A DNA stretch of 64,000 nt. Origin: Candidatus Terrybacteria bacterium RIFCSPHIGHO2_01_FULL_43_35. Lineage in GTDB: Bacteria > Patescibacteriota > Minisyncoccia > Terrybacterales > GWB1-40-14. The position numbers and the translations under genes were made by a program. Location of the stretch: the NCBI GenBank assembly GCA_001822815.1, contig MHSR01000013.1:18808-82807 (forward strand), given 5' to 3'. The notes beneath the pieces were generated by a model. That model saw only the letters and a list, made by a program, of their open reading frames with translations. It made no database searches and was not told the DNA's origin. Positions 8,048 through 56,003 of this stretch are shown here, piece after piece; the stretch's first letter is position 1, and each line of letters starts with the position of its first letter.

Positions 8048-9883
8048 TTATTCAACTGTCACCGACTTCGCTAAATTACGCGGTTTGTCTACATCGCACC
8101 CTCGCGCTACGGCGGTGTGATAGGCCAAAAGGTGCAGGGGAACGGTGGTCAAAATAGGCGAAAGTGGTTCCAAAACCTTCGGGATGAATATCGCGGTATC
8201 GGCGACTTTCAAAATATGCTCGTCCCCTTCGGTAGCAATGGCCAGAATAGGTCCGCCGCGGGCTTTTATCTCTTCTAGATTAGAAATGGTTTTCTCATAC
8301 ACGGAATCTTGCGGCACTATAGCTATTGTTGGGAAAGAAGAATCTATCAAGGCTATAGGCCCGTGCTTCATTTCCGCGGCGTTATACCCTTCGGCATGAA
8401 GATAGGATACTTCCTTAAGTTTCAAAGCCCCTTCTAAGGCGACTGGGAAATTGTATTTGCGGCCTAGGAAAAATATGTGCTCGGCGTCTTTGAGCCAGTT
8501 AGCCAATTGCGCGAAAAATTGCTCCTGCGCCAATATCTGGTTTATTTTTTCGGGTATGGTTATAAGTTCATTCAGTAGTTCTTTAGCGCGCGATACTTCA
8601 AGATTCCTCATGCGCCCCATGAAAACTGCGAGCATGTTCAAAACAATAAGCTGGGACAAAAAGGCTTTAGTTGAAGCTACGGCAATTTCTGGTCCAGCGT
8701 GGTTATATATTCCGGCATCAGTTTCGCGGGCCACCGATGAACCCACAACATTAACTATGCCCATGGTAAGTACGTTGCGTCTTTTGGCTTCGCGTACTGC
8801 GGCAAGCGTATCTGCGGTTTCGCCGGATTGCGAAACAGCGATTAGAACGGTGTGACTGCGGTCATTTAAAATGGGATTGCGGTATCTAAATTCAGCCGCG
8901 TATTCAACTTCGCATGGAACACCGGCCAACTCTTCAAAAAGATACTCGCCTATCAAAGCGGCGTGATAAGCCGTACCCATGCCGGTAAGAATTATTCGGT
9001 TGGTTTCGGAAAGACGCTTGGCGATATCTTCCAAGCCGCCTAATTTCACTAAGCCCTGATCCGCCATGACGCGTCCGCGCATGGTGTTTTGAATAACTTC
9101 GGGGCCTTCAAAAATTTCTTTGTGCATAAAATGCGGGTGACCTGATTTTTCCGCTTCTTCAAGCGTCCAGGGAATTTCCACCAGACGCTTAACCAAGTCT
9201 TCTCCGCCAAGATCTTTAATACGGAACCCTTCACTGGTTAATGTAGCCATTTCGCCGTCTTCAATAAAGATAACTTTTTTTGTAGCGGCAATAACCGCCG
9301 ATGGATCGGAAGCCAGCAAAGTTTCGCCATCGCCTATTCCTATAAGCAGGGGCGAAGAATTACGCGCGGCAACTATTTTTTGTGGGTCGCCTTCTGAAAT
9401 CACTGCCAGCGCGTATGTACCTCGAACGCGGGCCAAAGCTTGGGCAATAGCATCTTCAAGCGTACCTCGAAACAAACTTTCTATTAAATGCGCCAAAACT
9501 TCGGTATCGGTATCCGAAGAAAACTTATGACCTGAGGCCATAAGTTCATTTTTTATGGGGATATAATTTTCTATTATGCCGTTATGAACAATAAAAATTT
9601 TGCCGGTGCAATCGGTGTGAGGATGCGCATTAATATCATTTGGCACACCGTGCGTCGCCCACCTGGTATGCCCTATCGCTACGGTTCCCAATGGGACGCT
9701 TTTGTTAACTTCGCTTTCAAGTTTGGCTACGCGACCGGCGTTCTTCAGAAATTTTATCGGCTCGCCGATGTTGTGTACCGCGATGCCTGCGGAATCGTAG
9801 CCTCGATATTCGAGCCGTTTCAAACCATCCATTACAATGGGTGTAGCTTGTTTATTACCTATGTAACCAACAATTCCGCACAT
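8048..9883 (-). CDS. glmS: Glutamine--fructose-6-phosphate aminotransferase
   Basis: MCGIVGY N-terminal nucleophile, two SIS domains, C-terminal ...VTVE. Confidence 0.9.
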   Translation of the reverse strand: MCGIVGYIGNKQATPIVMDGLKRLEYRGYDSAGIAVHNIGEPIKFLKNAGRVAKLESEVNKSVPLGTVAIGHTRWATHGVPNDINAHPHTDCTGKIFIVHNGIIENYIPIKNELMASGHKFSSDTDTEVLAHLIESLFRGTLEDAIAQALARVRGTYALAVISEGDPQKIVAARNSSPLLIGIGDGETLLASDPSAVIAATKKVIFIEDGEMATLTSEGFRIKDLGGEDLVKRLVEIPWTLEEAEKSGHPHFMHKEIFEGPEVIQNTMRGRVMADQGLVKLGGLEDIAKRLSETNRIILTGMGTAYHAALIGEYLFEELAGVPCEVEYAAEFRYRNPILNDRSHTVLIAVSQSGETADTLAAVREAKRRNVLTMGIVNVVGSSVARETDAGIYNHAGPEIAVASTKAFLSQLIVLNMLAVFMGRMRNLEVSRAKELLNELITIPEKINQILAQEQFFAQLANWLKDAEHIFFLGRKYNFPVALEGALKLKEVSYLHAEGYNAAEMKHGPIALIDSSFPTIAIVPQDSVYEKTISNLEEIKARGGPILAIATEGDEHILKVADTAIFIPKVLEPLSPILTTVPLHLLAYHTAVARGCDVDKPRNLAKSVTVE

Positions 9884-34900: not shown

Positions 34901-34977
34901 TTATAGCATTAAAAAGATTGAGCCCGGCCCGAGTTTTATCTAAAACTGGAGCTGGGCTCTTTGTTTTGGCTTAGCGG

Positions 34978-35151
34978 TTAAAACCAGATGACGGCCTGCG
35001 TTCTACCAGACGAACCTGCACCGGAACAGGAACCAGAATCAGGCGCGGCGCTGGTCTAGGTGACACGCGATCCAGAACGCTTGCGCCGAAATTCTTGGCT
35101 ATCCGCGAGAGCTTGGCTCCGCGGGATGAACGATTCACCATGGAATGTATC
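34978..35151 (-). CDS. Small GC-rich ORF (57 aa) with a perfect Shine-Dalgarno, hypothetical
   Basis: AAGGAGGATACATTCC-ATG context and about 58% GC. Below the ORF-track length cutoff. Confidence 0.4.
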
Positions 35152-47050: not shown

Positions 47051-47338
47051 ATGCGAGAAGACCGGAAGATTAGCGAGCAAGAGGCTGATCGCCTTATCGC
47101 TGAAGGAGCAGGCACGATGTTTGATGTGCGTGATCCGGATGCGCAGATACCACCCTCCTACTTCGAGCCGAAAAACGGCAACCCGCACATCGTCGTCATA
47201 GCTGACGATACCTACTATGTGCGGAGCATCGAGGATCTAGAAAGCGGTCCCGATGGGGTCATTGTTCGCTTTCTAGATGAAAGCGACGGCAGGCCCCTGC
47301 CTTCGGCAGATGAAGTGTTCAAGTTTAGACAGCTGTAA
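47051..47338 (+). CDS. Small acidic protein (95 aa) with a perfect Shine-Dalgarno, hypothetical
   Basis: AAAGGAGGCAGAGG-ATG start context. Moderately GC-rich. Confidence 0.5.
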   Translation: MREDRKISEQEADRLIAEGAGTMFDVRDPDAQIPPSYFEPKNGNPHIVVIADDTYYVRSIEDLESGPDGVIVRFLDESDGRPLPSADEVFKFRQL

Positions 47339-53967: not shown

Positions 53968-54020
53968 GTGCCCCCGCGAGGAATTGAACCCCGATTTCAG
54001 CCTCCGGCTTGCCCCGCGCT
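53968..54020 (-). pseudogene. Degenerate partial copy of the 3' half of tRNA-Arg (T-arm plus acceptor 3' strand). It cannot form a complete cloverleaf.
   Basis: The minus-strand sequence CCGGAGGCTGAAATCGGGGTTCAATTCCTCGCGGGGGCACA parallels the tRNA-Arg 3' half (CCGGAGGAGGAGACTGGGGGTTCGATTCCTCTCGAGGACA). No matching 5' acceptor strand. Confidence 0.55.
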
Positions 54021-54040
54021 AAATTTGTATTACCTGTGCG

Positions 54041-54113
54041 TGTCCTCGAGAGGAATCGAACCCCCAGTCTCCTCCTCCGGAGGGAGGCGTTTTATCCATT
54101 AAACTACGAGGAC
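54041..54113 (-). tRNA. tRNA-Arg (anticodon CCG), no encoded CCA
   Basis: Manual cloverleaf on the minus strand: acceptor GTCCTCG/CGAGGAC, D-stem GTTT/AAAC, anticodon stem CCTCC/GGAGG with loop CTCCGGA, T-loop TTCGATT. Confidence 0.8.
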
Positions 54114-54481
54114 AAATTTTAGTGCGAGGGCGTTGTCAGCCACCTTATGATAAAGTCGCGTGCGATTTTTGCCACGCCGTAGCGTGATCCCACCTTCTTA
54201 AAAAATTAAATAACTGTGACAGAAAAATGCGAATCCGCCTGTGGCGGAAACTATAAGCGCATTATACATCTATAACTACCTTTGAAAAGTTTATTTGTTC
54301 AACGATAGTACCCGCCGCATGCGCTTTTCTTTGATTGTTTTTGACATAGATATAGCCATTTCTCATTGTGGAGAAAACCGCCATATGTGTCTGCACATTA
54401 CCACTATGTATTGACTTTTTCTATAATAAGTATATACTATATTTACTCAGTTCTCACCAGCATACCAAAAAGGAGCTCTCC

Positions 54482-54712
54482 ATGTTTCGGCTATTCGCCT
54501 GGCTCCAATCACACAACTCCTTTAAGACAAGTGATAGACAATGTCGGCTTTGTCGTCTCAATCCCGGACGATGCCCCGTGTGTAGGGGGTCCCGCATCGT
54601 ACCAGGCCTCCTTTTGGGCTACCCGTGTTTGTTATGTAAAAACTCCTCGGGAATCTGTCCGGACTGCGACGGCAACGGCGTCCGCGAAGAGGCGCCTGCA
54701 AACGGTGGCTAA
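54482..54712 (+). CDS. Small cysteine-rich protein (76 aa) with four CxxC repeats resembling a DnaJ-type zinc-finger (CxxCxGxG) domain
   Basis: CRLC, CPVCRGSR, CLLC and CPDCDGNG motifs. AAAGGAG SD 7 nt upstream of the ATG. GC-rich relative to its flanks. Terminator hairpin at 54925-54955. Confidence 0.55.
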   Translation: MFRLFAWLQSHNSFKTSDRQCRLCRLNPGRCPVCRGSRIVPGLLLGYPCLLCKNSSGICPDCDGNGVREEAPANGG

Positions 54713-55139
54713 AAAGCTTCATTGCTTCAAAATCTCCGGTTCGATAGAAACCCCTCGTGCGCATATCCCAGACGAGTACACGACCGCCCATTCTGCGGCA
54801 CGGGCAATGCGAAATGTTGCGAGGCGCTTAGAGGAACGGTATGGACTCGCCGAAGGCGCTCTTTATACTGGAAACCTCAGGGCGGTCCCGTGCAACGAGG
54901 ACCAACCCAACGATAAAAAAATCCCGTAGCAATACGGGATATTATTACGCCAGCGAAACGTGGCGTTCGTTGAATGTTTCCGGCCCCATGTTGGCTTCGC
55001 TACATCTTTATCCGCCCGTTCTGCGCGTTGCGAAGCCGGCGCTGAAACAAAAACTTTTCCCGCACGAAACGCCCGCGAAACGCGCTGGGTGTTCTATACG
55101 CAACTTTGTCACGTTTTGCCGCTTTCATTGAGTATTTTT

Positions 55140-55379
55140 TCATAATCTTAAACTCGGCAATATGGCCCCTCGTTGTTCAATCCATCCACGGTGATATATT
55201 TCTATACCATCCTGCAATATGAGCAAAAACCAGAATATGGCAATTAACAACGCGATCTTGAACCAATTTTCTTTCGCGAAGTTTACTATTTTTTTTGAGT
55301 AGTGTTGATTTTCCCATATAAAGTTAATAAAAAATATAAGACTTACGCGCTTACCTTTTTGAGCGGATTCCGAGGCCAT
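55140..55379 (-). CDS. Small membrane protein (79 aa), hypothetical
   Basis: Central hydrophobic helix (IALLIAIFWFLLIL). Confidence 0.35.
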   Translation of the reverse strand: MASESAQKGKRVSLIFFINFIWENQHYSKKIVNFAKENWFKIALLIAIFWFLLILQDGIEIYHRGWIEQRGAILPSLRL

Positions 55380-55481
55380 TTTGGCATGGTTCCCGAGCGC
55401 GAGCGAGGGACAAAATGGCCAAGGCCTCGGAGCCCCGCGCTGGCGGGGCGAGAATGAGTGAGAAAAGAGTAAGCGTGTAAG

Positions 55482-56003
55482 TCAAATATACCTATCCGCC
55501 ACTACTGACGCGGCTATAGACTCTGGCTTCCATTTAATATTTTCCAAAGGAAAACCGTAACCCAAAAGCATGCCAATTATTTCACGCATAATAACCGAGG
55601 TGCGGCCCGACTCCCCCACATCGGCATGCACTTCAATATTATTAGATATGTCTTCACCTAAAATCTGCTTGAGTCGCGATCTTAATTCTACCGTCAAGGT
55701 TCCGGTCAAAATAACCTCTTGATAAATCCTTTTGGGGTGGAAACCGCCGCTTTTATATTCTTTACCCTTGCCCCAGGTTATAGTTCTCCAGGCTCGCGCG
55801 CCGTGGCCAACTCGCCAAAGAACAATCGCGGAGACAAATTTGACTTCGCCGTTTATTTCTTCTGAATCCGTGCCGACCGAAACTTTAAAATTATCTCCTG
55901 GCATTGAGCTGTATGAGGCGACAATAAAATCAACTACTTCCAAGAAGGAGCAGGATCCGCTGGTTATGCTCAAAAATGGCTGTTCGGATAAATTATTATC
56001 CAT
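55482..56003 (-). CDS. Hypothetical protein (DUF458/YkuK-like, possible RNase H-like fold), last gene of the Bat-like operon
   Basis: ORF immediately downstream of the batA-like gene. Family assignment is tentative. An alternative start exists at 56039. Confidence 0.4.
   Translation of the reverse strand: MDNNLSEQPFLSITSGSCSFLEVVDFIVASYSSMPGDNFKVSVGTDSEEINGEVKFVSAIVLWRVGHGARAWRTITWGKGKEYKSGGFHPKRIYQEVILTGTLTVELRSRLKQILGEDISNNIEVHADVGESGRTSVIMREIIGMLLGYGFPLENIKWKPESIAASVVADRYI

What the first reader, a model, noticed from the sequence alone, without database searches (positions are those of the whole stretch)
54400..54960. GC-rich monocistronic islet encoding a 76-aa four-times-CxxC (DnaJ-CR-like) zinc-finger protein, with a roughly 240-nt structured 3' region and its own promoter and terminator
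A promoter-like TTGACT-16-TATACT at about 54411-54445 is followed by a perfect SD (AAAGGAG) and an ORF. The ORF carries CRLC...CPVCRGSR...CLLC...CPDCDGNG, i.e. the CxxCxGxG repeats of DnaJ-type zinc fingers.

A long GC-rich untranslated tail ends at a terminator hairpin (ATCCCGTA-gcaa-TACGGGAT, 54925-54955).

The unit lies next to the tRNA-Arg attachment-scar locus. This is consistent with horizontally acquired cargo.

Other small SD-perfect GC-rich ORFs (47051-47338; 34978-35151) share this style.
Basis: partly seen in the sequence, partly recalled or inferred. Interest (0 to 1): 0.5.

Follow-up and report, generated by a model that had tools for sequence, protein, structure and literature searches.

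The report
Two-gene small-protein operon, not one
The zinc-finger mini-gene is real and conserved, but its supposed structured RNA tail is a second small gene; the pair is an uncharacterised two-gene operon in a few groundwater Parcubacteria and is mis-annotated in public gene calls.

Summary
The 76-aa ORF with four CxxC motifs exists (54482-54712, +). It has a promoter-like site, a strong Shine-Dalgarno sequence (SD) and a hairpin downstream, and the region is GC-rich (0.55 against 0.44 for the window).

The "240-nt structured 3' region" is a second coding gene, g2 (54705-54929, 74 aa, GTG start overlapping the zinc-finger stop by 8 nt). Seven Parcubacteria lineages carry the same znf-g2 pair next to tRNA-Arg(CCG), with the promoter, SDs and terminator in the same positions. 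Both genes show dN/dS of 0.15-0.4 and most variation at third codon positions. Only these two frames stay open in all seven lineages, so the publicly called 180-aa ORF is an artefact.

All eight Cys of the zinc finger are invariant. Its best remote match is the DnaJ cysteine-rich domain (hhalign 90 %), but Pfam PF00684 is not reached.

Nothing supports horizontal acquisition. Function is inferred only: probably a small nucleic-acid-binding protein with a zinc-finger partner.

The parts
54411..54438 (+). Promoter-like site: -35 TTGACT (54411-54416), 16-nt spacer, -10 TATACT (54433-54438)
   Evidence: TTGACT plus a 16/17-nt spacer and a TAnnnT -10 recur at the equivalent place upstream of the operon in L010, L015, L016, L011 and L013. 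They also recur upstream of the solitary g2 homologue in L020. The promoter is inferred, not shown by transcript data.
54469..54475 (+). Shine-Dalgarno AAAGGAG, 6 nt before the znf ATG
   Evidence: Equivalent AGGAG/GGAGG lies before the znf start in all lineages.
54482..54712 (+). znf: 76-aa protein with four invariant CxxC pairs (C21/24, C31/34, C49/52, C59/62, then xGxG). It is a contracted DnaJ-CR-like module.
54705..54929 (+). g2: 74-aa basic protein (pI 9.1). Its GTG start overlaps the znf stop (GTGGCTAA). Predicted beta-beta-alpha-beta fold. It belongs to an undescribed small-protein family.
54921..54940 (.). Hairpin ATCCCGTA-GCAA-TACGGGAT. The g2 stop TAG (54927-54929) lies in its 5' arm. 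It has an A-run before and a weak T-tract after on the plus strand, and a strong T-run on the minus strand: a bidirectional terminator shared with the convergent gene 55143..55000.
   Evidence: Hairpins with flanking A/T runs follow g2 at the same position in L010, L015, L016, L011 and L013.
54040..54113 (-). tRNA-Arg(CCG), divergently oriented conserved neighbour of the operon
   Evidence: The adjacency is seen in 8 lineages, including the remote g2 homologues in L020 (tRNA cut by the contig end, read by eye) and L024.

Best explanation
Window 54411-54940 is a two-gene operon of a Parcubacteria (CPR) chromosome.

One promoter drives two genes:
1. znf (54482-54712), a 76-aa protein. Its eight invariant cysteines form a shortened version of the DnaJ cysteine-rich two-zinc hairpin.
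2. g2 (54705-54929), translationally coupled to znf. It is a 74-aa basic beta-beta-alpha-beta protein of a previously undescribed family.

A hairpin shared with a convergent gene ends both transcripts.

Shown here: gene structure, conservation, purifying selection and the family relationships.

Inferred (about 0.3-0.35): g2 is a small nucleic-acid-binding protein, most likely RNA- or ribosome-associated. This rests on its uniform basic charge, its eL20/LX-like fold and its persistent linkage to a tRNA gene. Znf would be its clade-specific zinc-finger partner, acting as adaptor or holdase in the way stand-alone DnaJ-CR-like proteins such as anti-TRAP or BSD2 bind one specific client. g2 can act without znf, because more distant lineages have g2 alone.
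For: Gene structure:
- Seven lineages (the window, L010/L014, L015, L016, L018, L011/L017 and L013) carry znf followed by g2. In six of them g2 has its own SD and a GTG or TTG start 9-15 nt after the znf stop. In the window the start overlaps the stop by 8 nt.
- All eight Cys plus the final GxG are invariant.

Coding signal:
- dN/dS for znf is 0.23, 0.40 and 0.15. For g2 it is 0.30, 0.18 and 0.16, in pairs where dS is not saturated.
- Mean pairwise difference at codon positions 1/2/3 is 0.46/0.39/0.59 for znf and 0.37/0.30/0.61 for g2.
- Only these two frames are open in all seven lineages.

Family relationships:
- The exhaustive profile search found 14 proteins at E<=1e-3 among 1.84 billion. 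Eight of them are 64-102-aa remote relatives sharing the (Y/W)CVxG...E(Y/H)TxAxSxxQA...VAxRL...Y(L/T)GxC pattern.
- One of these (L022) is again preceded by a znf C-terminus. Others stand alone.
- The pI of all 15 g2 proteins is 8.9-10.5.

Structure:
- The AF2 model of g2 has pLDDT 72 with strands 6-14 and 19-28, helix 31-46 and strand 57-62.
- The highest Foldseek TM-scores, 0.63-0.65 on both normalisations, are also archaeal LX.
- The znf profile matches the DnaJ CR: E 2e-4 and hhalign 90 %.

Context:
- tRNA-Arg(CCG) is adjacent in 8 lineages.
Against: - There are no expression, metal-binding or interaction data.
- The AF2 model of znf is unusable (pLDDT 48), so the zinc topology is untested. 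Four CxxC motifs do not guarantee two zinc ions: HVO_2753 binds only one (PMC11241148).
- The g2 model rests on a 3-sequence alignment.
- Foldseek E-values are not significant. hhalign of the g2 family against archaeal eL20 gives 1.3 %. The eL20 link is therefore fold-level only, and this small fold is shared with PurS, PaaB, phage portal-vertex proteins and some anti-CRISPRs.
- Both proteins evolve fast: 35-40 % identity where the neighbouring RNase H-like protein is 77 % identical. The family is rare. Both points argue against a core translational role.
- The tRNA adjacency may be inherited synteny with no functional meaning.
Confidence: 0.8

Rival explanations
1. Regulatory or inhibitor pair. 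Znf acts like anti-TRAP, a small Zn-protein that binds and neutralises a specific protein. That target is either g2 (a toxin-antitoxin-like or sequestration pair) or an unrelated cellular target. g2 is then not a nucleic-acid binder.
For: - Anti-TRAP is among the weak hits of the znf profile: PDB 3lcz E 0.13 and NCBIfam RtpA E 4.1.
- Tight translational coupling, as seen here, is typical of stoichiometric pairs.
- The fold list for g2 includes small inhibitors: AcrIE2, AcrIC9, T7 Gp2 and Dmd.
Against: - None of these hits is significant.
- g2 occurs without znf in several lineages. That is unusual for a toxin needing its antitoxin.
- PADLOC gives nothing for g2 and only a weak Cys-motif hit for znf.
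- No mobile-element context was found.
Confidence: 0.15
2. Horizontally acquired cargo of a tRNA-Arg-targeting mobile element or prophage remnant, for example an anti-defence or accessory gene pair.
For: - GC3 of znf (0.59) and g2 (0.55) lies 3-4 sd above the window's genes, which average 0.437 +/- 0.035.
- A degenerate copy of the 3' part of tRNA-Arg lies at 53968-54030.
- Further tRNA fragments occur in L018 and L020.
Against: - The pair is at the same place in all seven related lineages, and g2 is there in still more distant ones.
- It lies on the 5' side of the tRNA, not between the tRNA and the duplicated fragment.
- No integrase or phage gene is nearby.
- No relative was found in IMG/VR, INPHARED phages or PLSDB plasmids. 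PHROGs and BFVD give nothing significant.
- GC2 is also raised (0.55 against 0.38), which shows a composition effect of Cys, Gly, Pro, Arg and Ala.
Confidence: 0.05
3. The region downstream of znf (54713-54945) is a structured non-coding RNA or 3' UTR, as first proposed. Alternatively, the single long 180/187-aa frame-0 ORF called by public pipelines is the real gene.
For: - The fold z-score is -2.56.
- Prodigal-type callers chose the 180-aa ORF, P0001. In GW2011_GWB1_40_14 they chose a 113-aa equivalent, P0005.
Against: - There is no Rfam hit even at E<=10.
- The conservation is at the protein level. Third codon positions vary most, dN/dS is 0.16-0.30, and each lineage has its own SD and start.
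- The long frame has stops within the znf region in L016, L018, L011 and L013. It also runs through the AT-rich promoter.
Confidence: 0.02

Closest known systems
DnaJ/Hsp40 cysteine-rich domain (Pfam PF00684; PDB 1exk)
   Same: - Four CxxC pairs in the same order.
- Motifs 2, 3 and 4 align in register with those of E. coli DnaJ.
- The last motif is a full CxxCxGxG.
- A hydrophobic hairpin lies between motifs 2 and 3.
   Different: - It is a stand-alone protein of 57-83 aa with no J domain or C-terminal domains.
- Spacers are much shorter: 3-6 residues between motifs 1-2 and 3-4, and about 14 between motifs 2-3, against 13, 10 and 18 in DnaJ.
- Motifs 1-3 lack the GxG.
- The Pfam gathering score is not reached.
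Stand-alone DnaJ-CR-like or CxxC mini-proteins: anti-TRAP (RtpA), BSD2, and Haloferax C(P)XCG zinc-finger micro-proteins such as HVO_2753
   Same: - Small size and Cys4 knuckles.
- They act, where known, by binding one specific partner.
- HVO_2753 likewise has four CxxC-type motifs in 59 aa (PMC11241148).
   Different: - There is no significant sequence match: RtpA E 4.1, BSD2_CRD E 2.7.
- Anti-TRAP has a single Cys4 site and T-box control.
- HVO_2753 binds only one Zn.
- None of these is encoded with a g2-like partner.
Ribosomal protein eL20 / LX / L18Ae (archaea and eukaryotes; Pfam PF01775)
   Same: - Same size as archaeal LX (57-78 aa) and the same beta-beta-alpha-beta order.
- Basic charge.
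- A Gly closes strand 1 in both.
   Different: - No sequence or profile similarity: no Pfam hit and hhalign 1.3 %.
- The eL20 GSKH motif is absent.
- g2 is bacterial, rare and fast-evolving, and does not lie in a ribosomal-protein operon.

Membership tests
DnaJ cysteine-rich domain (PF00684 DnaJ_CXXCXGXG) | Score above the Pfam gathering threshold | tested here: not met
   There is no PF00684 hit for the window protein at E<=1. The best E is 0.092, in 2 of 6 family members.
DnaJ cysteine-rich domain (PF00684 DnaJ_CXXCXGXG) | Four CxxCxGxG repeats | tested here: not met
   Four CxxC pairs are invariant. Only motif 4 is CxxCxGxG in all lineages, motif 2 is CxxCxG in most, and motifs 1 and 3 lack the Gly pattern.
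DnaJ cysteine-rich domain (PF00684 DnaJ_CXXCXGXG) | Profile-level similarity to a solved DnaJ CR with motifs in register | tested here: met
   The best hit of the PDB profile search is 1exk_A, E 2.1e-4. hhalign gives probability 90 %, E 1.6e-6, with motifs 2-4 aligned. Cys-rich composition may inflate these scores.
DnaJ cysteine-rich domain (PF00684 DnaJ_CXXCXGXG) | Two Zn ions bound by motifs 1+4 and 2+3 in a V-shaped hairpin | not testable with these tools
   The AF2 model of znf has pLDDT 48. Metal analysis or an NMR structure is needed. The HVO_2753 precedent shows that one site can be empty (PMC11241148).
DnaJ cysteine-rich domain (PF00684 DnaJ_CXXCXGXG) | Embedded in a type I Hsp40 (J domain, G/F region, C-terminal domains) | tested here: not met
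   The protein is 76 aa and stands alone, with no other domain.
Anti-TRAP (RtpA, NF058604 / PF15777) | Family HMM hit | tested here: not met
   NCBIfam E 4.1 against a cutoff of 65 bits. Pfam Anti-TRAP E 5.7 in 1 of 6 members.
Ribosomal protein eL20/LX (PF01775) | Sequence or profile similarity to the family | tested here: not met
   No Pfam hit in 13 members. The PDB profile search lists no eL20. hhalign of A7 against four archaeal LX sequences gives 1.3 %.
Ribosomal protein eL20/LX (PF01775) | Same fold and topology | tested here: met
Ribosomal protein eL20/LX (PF01775) | Bound to the large ribosomal subunit | not testable with these tools
   This needs ribosome purification or cryo-EM from these uncultivated bacteria, or binding assays with rRNA.
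tRNA-targeted genomic island or prophage cargo | Lies between the tRNA and a direct repeat of its 3' end, with an integrase, and is variably present among relatives | tested here: not met
   The repeat of the tRNA 3' part is at 53968-54030, on the other side of the tRNA. There is no integrase in the called genes. The operon is present in all related loci. There are no phage or plasmid relatives.
Rho-independent terminator for the plus-strand operon | GC-rich hairpin followed by a U-tract on the transcribed strand | tested here: inconclusive
   The hairpin is present. The plus-strand tail ATTATTACG is weak and the minus-strand tail TTTTTTT is strong. Equivalent hairpins in relatives have T-runs on both sides.

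The most novel reading that the evidence does not exclude
g2 is a bacterial counterpart of the archaeal/eukaryotic ribosomal protein eL20/LX, either very divergent or convergent. On this reading it is a lineage-specific rRNA- or tRNA-binding accessory protein of Parcubacteria ribosomes, and znf is a zinc-finger partner recruited in one sub-clade. It would be the first eL20-type protein found in Bacteria. It would also hint that CPR ribosomes, which lack several bacterial proteins, have gained replacements.
Probability: 0.07. Interest if true: 0.8.

Novelty: new variant of a known kind. Interest (0 to 1): 0.35.

Why it matters
- It corrects an annotation error. Public gene calls for this locus report a fused 180-aa ORF (113 aa in a relative) and miss both real small genes. 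These two small-protein families are therefore almost invisible in protein databases.
- It adds a contracted, stand-alone version of the DnaJ cysteine-rich module.
- It adds a new family of basic proteins of about 70 aa, with an eL20/LX-like fold, that is linked to tRNA-Arg(CCG) in uncultivated CPR bacteria.
- If g2 proved to be ribosome- or RNA-associated, it would bear on how reduced CPR translation systems are built. Otherwise this is an ordinary lineage-specific small-protein operon.

Tried and rejected
Searches that gave nothing significant:
- Pfam, NCBIfam, PHROGs and PADLOC on znf, g2 and the neighbouring small ORFs.
- Word-indexed homologue searches with the 76-aa and 180-aa sequences. 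They returned nothing, or only the query itself. The 76-aa protein is not a called gene anywhere in the collection.
- Rfam at gathering score and at E<=10. It found only the tRNA.
- Viral and plasmid searches.

Leads that did not hold:
- Near-identical strains (L001-L009) gave no informative variation. The two mismatches inside znf are within 35 nt of a contig end and are probably assembly errors.
- The PDB profile search for g2 gave the MS2 coat protein as top hit at E 0.9. I rejected this as chance, because the aligned segment is beta-strand in MS2 and helix in g2.
- The giant repeat proteins P0006 and P0009 in the exhaustive search were rejected as summed weak repeat hits.
- hhalign of g2 against eL20 gave no support for homology.
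- The znf AF2 model was too poor to use for a fold search.

Not available: the afdb50 library could not be searched.

Full report
**What is in the sequence**

The window is a chromosome segment of a Parcubacteria (Candidate Phyla Radiation, CPR) bacterium.
- Its beta-CASP and RNase H-like genes are found unchanged on 5-196-kb contigs of groundwater metagenomes.
- The nearest named genome is Parcubacteria GW2011_GWB1_40_14, whose RNase H-like protein is 77 % identical.

The 76-aa ORF is at 54482-54712 on the plus strand.
- AAAGGAG lies 6 nt upstream of the ATG.
- TTGACT-16-TATACT lies at 54411-54438.
- GC is 0.55 between 54500 and 55100, against 0.44 for the window.
- The hairpin ATCCCGTA-GCAA-TACGGGAT is at 54921-54940. 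Its long T-run is on the minus strand, and on the plus strand it is followed by ATTATTACG.

**The '3' structured region' is a gene**

Public gene callers did not call the 76-aa ORF. They called a 180-aa ORF in another frame instead (54387-54929).

I fetched the syntenic locus of GW2011_GWB1_40_14 (L010), six more metagenome loci (L011-L017) and one Logan contig (L018). Together with the window these give seven lineages. In every lineage:
- An ORF with four CxxC motifs is followed at once by a second ORF of 69-74 aa.
- In six lineages the second ORF has its own AGGAG/GGAGG and a GTG or TTG start 9-15 nt after the first stop.
- In the window its GTG (54705) overlaps the stop (GTGGCTAA).

The N-termini align at M-x3-L-(H/Y/W)-C. 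The proteins share L(Y/W/H)C..G, E(H/Y)T.A.S..(Q)A, VA.(R)(L) and (Y/F)TG. I call this gene g2.

The coding signal is clear.
- dN/dS is 0.18-0.30 for g2 and 0.23-0.40 for znf in the two pairs with unsaturated dS. It is 0.15-0.16 for both genes in L016-L018.
- Mean pairwise differences at codon positions 1/2/3 are 0.37/0.30/0.61 for g2 and 0.46/0.39/0.59 for znf.
- Only these two frames are free of stops in all seven lineages.
- The frame of the 180/187-aa ORF has stops within the znf region in four lineages.

The RNA-structure reading has little support. The fold z-score of 54713-54945 is -2.56, terminator hairpin included. Rfam finds nothing there even at E<=10.

**Regulatory signals**

TTGACT, a 16/17-nt spacer and a TAnnnT box recur upstream of the operon in the other lineages. 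They also recur upstream of a solitary g2 homologue in L020.

A hairpin flanked by A- and T-runs follows g2 in each lineage. In the window it is shared with a convergent conserved 47-aa ORF at 55143..55000.

The promoter and terminator are therefore inferred from conserved position, not from transcript data.

**The zinc-finger protein**

- All eight Cys and the final GxG are invariant. The N- and C-terminal tails are variable.
- Pfam gives no hit for the window protein. PF00684 reaches only E 0.09 in 2 of 6 members, and DUF7895 reaches E 0.0015 in 5 of 6, below its cutoff.
- A family profile finds the E. coli DnaJ cysteine-rich domain as best PDB match (1exk, E 2e-4). Anti-TRAP follows at E 0.13.
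- hhalign against the DnaJ CR gives 90 % with motifs 2-4 in register.
- The spacers are much shorter than in DnaJ, and only motif 4 is a full CxxCxGxG.

'DnaJ-CR-like' is thus a fair description of what znf resembles. Formal membership is not met.

The AF2 model is unusable (pLDDT 48). Four CxxC motifs do not prove two zinc ions: HVO_2753 binds only one (PMC11241148).

**The g2 family**

- Word-indexed search with a znf+g2 alignment found only three more proteins.
- The exhaustive profile search of 1.84 billion representatives found 14 hits at E<=1e-3.
- Two of these are giant repeat proteins that I regard as spurious. Eight are 64-102-aa proteins with the same motif pattern.
- No Pfam, NCBIfam, PHROG or PADLOC family matches.
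- All members are basic, with pI 8.9-10.5.

Contexts of the remote members:
- One (L022) is preceded by the C-terminal half of a znf-like ORF.
- Others stand alone among housekeeping genes such as ruvA, thiI and rtcB.
- L020 and L024 again lie beside tRNA-Arg(CCG), as do all seven operon lineages.

g2 is therefore the older and wider component. Znf is an addition in one sub-clade.

**Fold of g2**

- AF2 (3-sequence alignment, pLDDT 72) predicts beta(6-14)-beta(19-28)-alpha(31-46)-beta(57-62).
- Foldseek gives no significant E-value. Its highest TM-scores (0.63-0.65) are again archaeal LX.
- I took archaeal LX sequences from PDB alignments. A profile-profile comparison gave 1.3 %.

The relation to eL20 is a fold resemblance, not demonstrated homology.

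**Is it foreign DNA?**

- GC3 of znf (0.59) and g2 (0.55) is 3-4 sd above the window's genes. GC2 of znf is also raised (0.55 against 0.38), which reflects Cys/Gly/Pro/Arg/Ala content.
- The operon is at the same place in all relatives.
- It lies on the 5' side of the tRNA, whereas the duplicated tRNA 3' fragment lies on the other side.
- There is no integrase nearby.
- No relatives were found in IMG/VR, phage or plasmid collections or in BFVD.

Horizontal acquisition is not supported.

**Function**

Nothing here shows function. My best inference, at about one in three, is that g2 is a small RNA- or ribosome-associated binding protein. Znf would be a zinc-finger partner translated with it in fixed proportion.

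The main rival is an anti-TRAP-like inhibitor or regulator pair. The fast evolution and rarity of both proteins argue against a core role in translation.

**Verdict**

The locus is a real, conserved and mis-annotated two-gene operon encoding two small proteins of unknown function. It is a modestly interesting new variant, not a new kind of system.

Noticed in passing
window 55000-55143 (-): A 47-aa very basic ORF (pI 11.9): MKKYSMKAAKRDKVAYRTPSAFRGRFVREK... It is conserved in all related loci, with 53-67 % identity over the first 30 residues (tblastn E 1e-8 to 1e-16). It follows the RNase H-like gene directly in L011 and L013. It has no Pfam or NCBIfam hit and converges on the same hairpin as g2.
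   Followed up: partly
window 55325-55495 (-): A 171-nt nested inverted repeat between the RNase H-like gene and the 47-aa ORF. It folds at -73 kcal/mol (z-score -7.4) and ends in a T-run. It is single-copy in the window and has no Rfam hit. It is not alignable to the equally GC-rich spacers of L010 and L016, and is absent in L011 and L013. Its nature is unknown (large terminator, ncRNA or element remnant).
   Followed up: partly
window 53968-54030 (-); L018 176-240: A degenerate copy of the 3' part of tRNA-Arg (T-arm and acceptor, 84 % identical over 25 nt) lies just downstream of the intact tRNA-Arg(CCG). A similar fragment is conserved in L018, and L018 and L020 hold further tRNA-like pieces. 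ARAGORN and Rfam do not call it. It may be an old integration scar or a tandem duplication.
   Followed up: partly
window 54234-54248; L010 about 8435-8455: A short hairpin TCCGCC-TGT-GGCGGA in the spacer between tRNA-Arg and the operon promoter. It is nearly identical in L010 (GGATCCGCCTTTGGCGGAAAC). Its T-rich tail is on the minus strand. Its role is unknown.
   Followed up: no
L024 980-1174; L020 1-110: Remote g2 homologues (28-34 % identical to the window protein) are again divergently adjacent to tRNA-Arg(CCG). In L024 ARAGORN also calls a 'tRNA-Pyl (CTA)' between the two, which may be a suppressor-like tRNA or a miscall.
   Followed up: no
L022 100-228: Between a znf-like ORF end (...CPLCGGSRVCQTCHGTGE) and the g2 homologue P0011 lies a 25-aa mini-ORF with CLMCNSSGKCQLC. 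It resembles half a znf and may be a decayed duplicate.
   Followed up: no
window 54387-54929 (+); L010 7669-8010 (-): Public gene calls fuse the out-of-frame znf region with g2 into a 180-aa protein (P0001) and a 113-aa protein (P0005). The real small genes are therefore missing from, or misrepresented in, protein databases.
   Followed up: yes
L010 7013-7627; L018 1093-1449: A CYTH-domain gene (Pfam E 1.8e-4, just below the cutoff) lies convergent to g2 in L010, L014, L015 and L018. It is absent at this position in the window, so the neighbourhood downstream of g2 varies.
   Followed up: no
It is called as a gene in public data (95 aa in L001) and has no Pfam domain. At the second coordinates there is no plus-strand ORF of at least 40 aa, only a 56-aa minus-strand ORF at 34971-35141.
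   Followed up: partly
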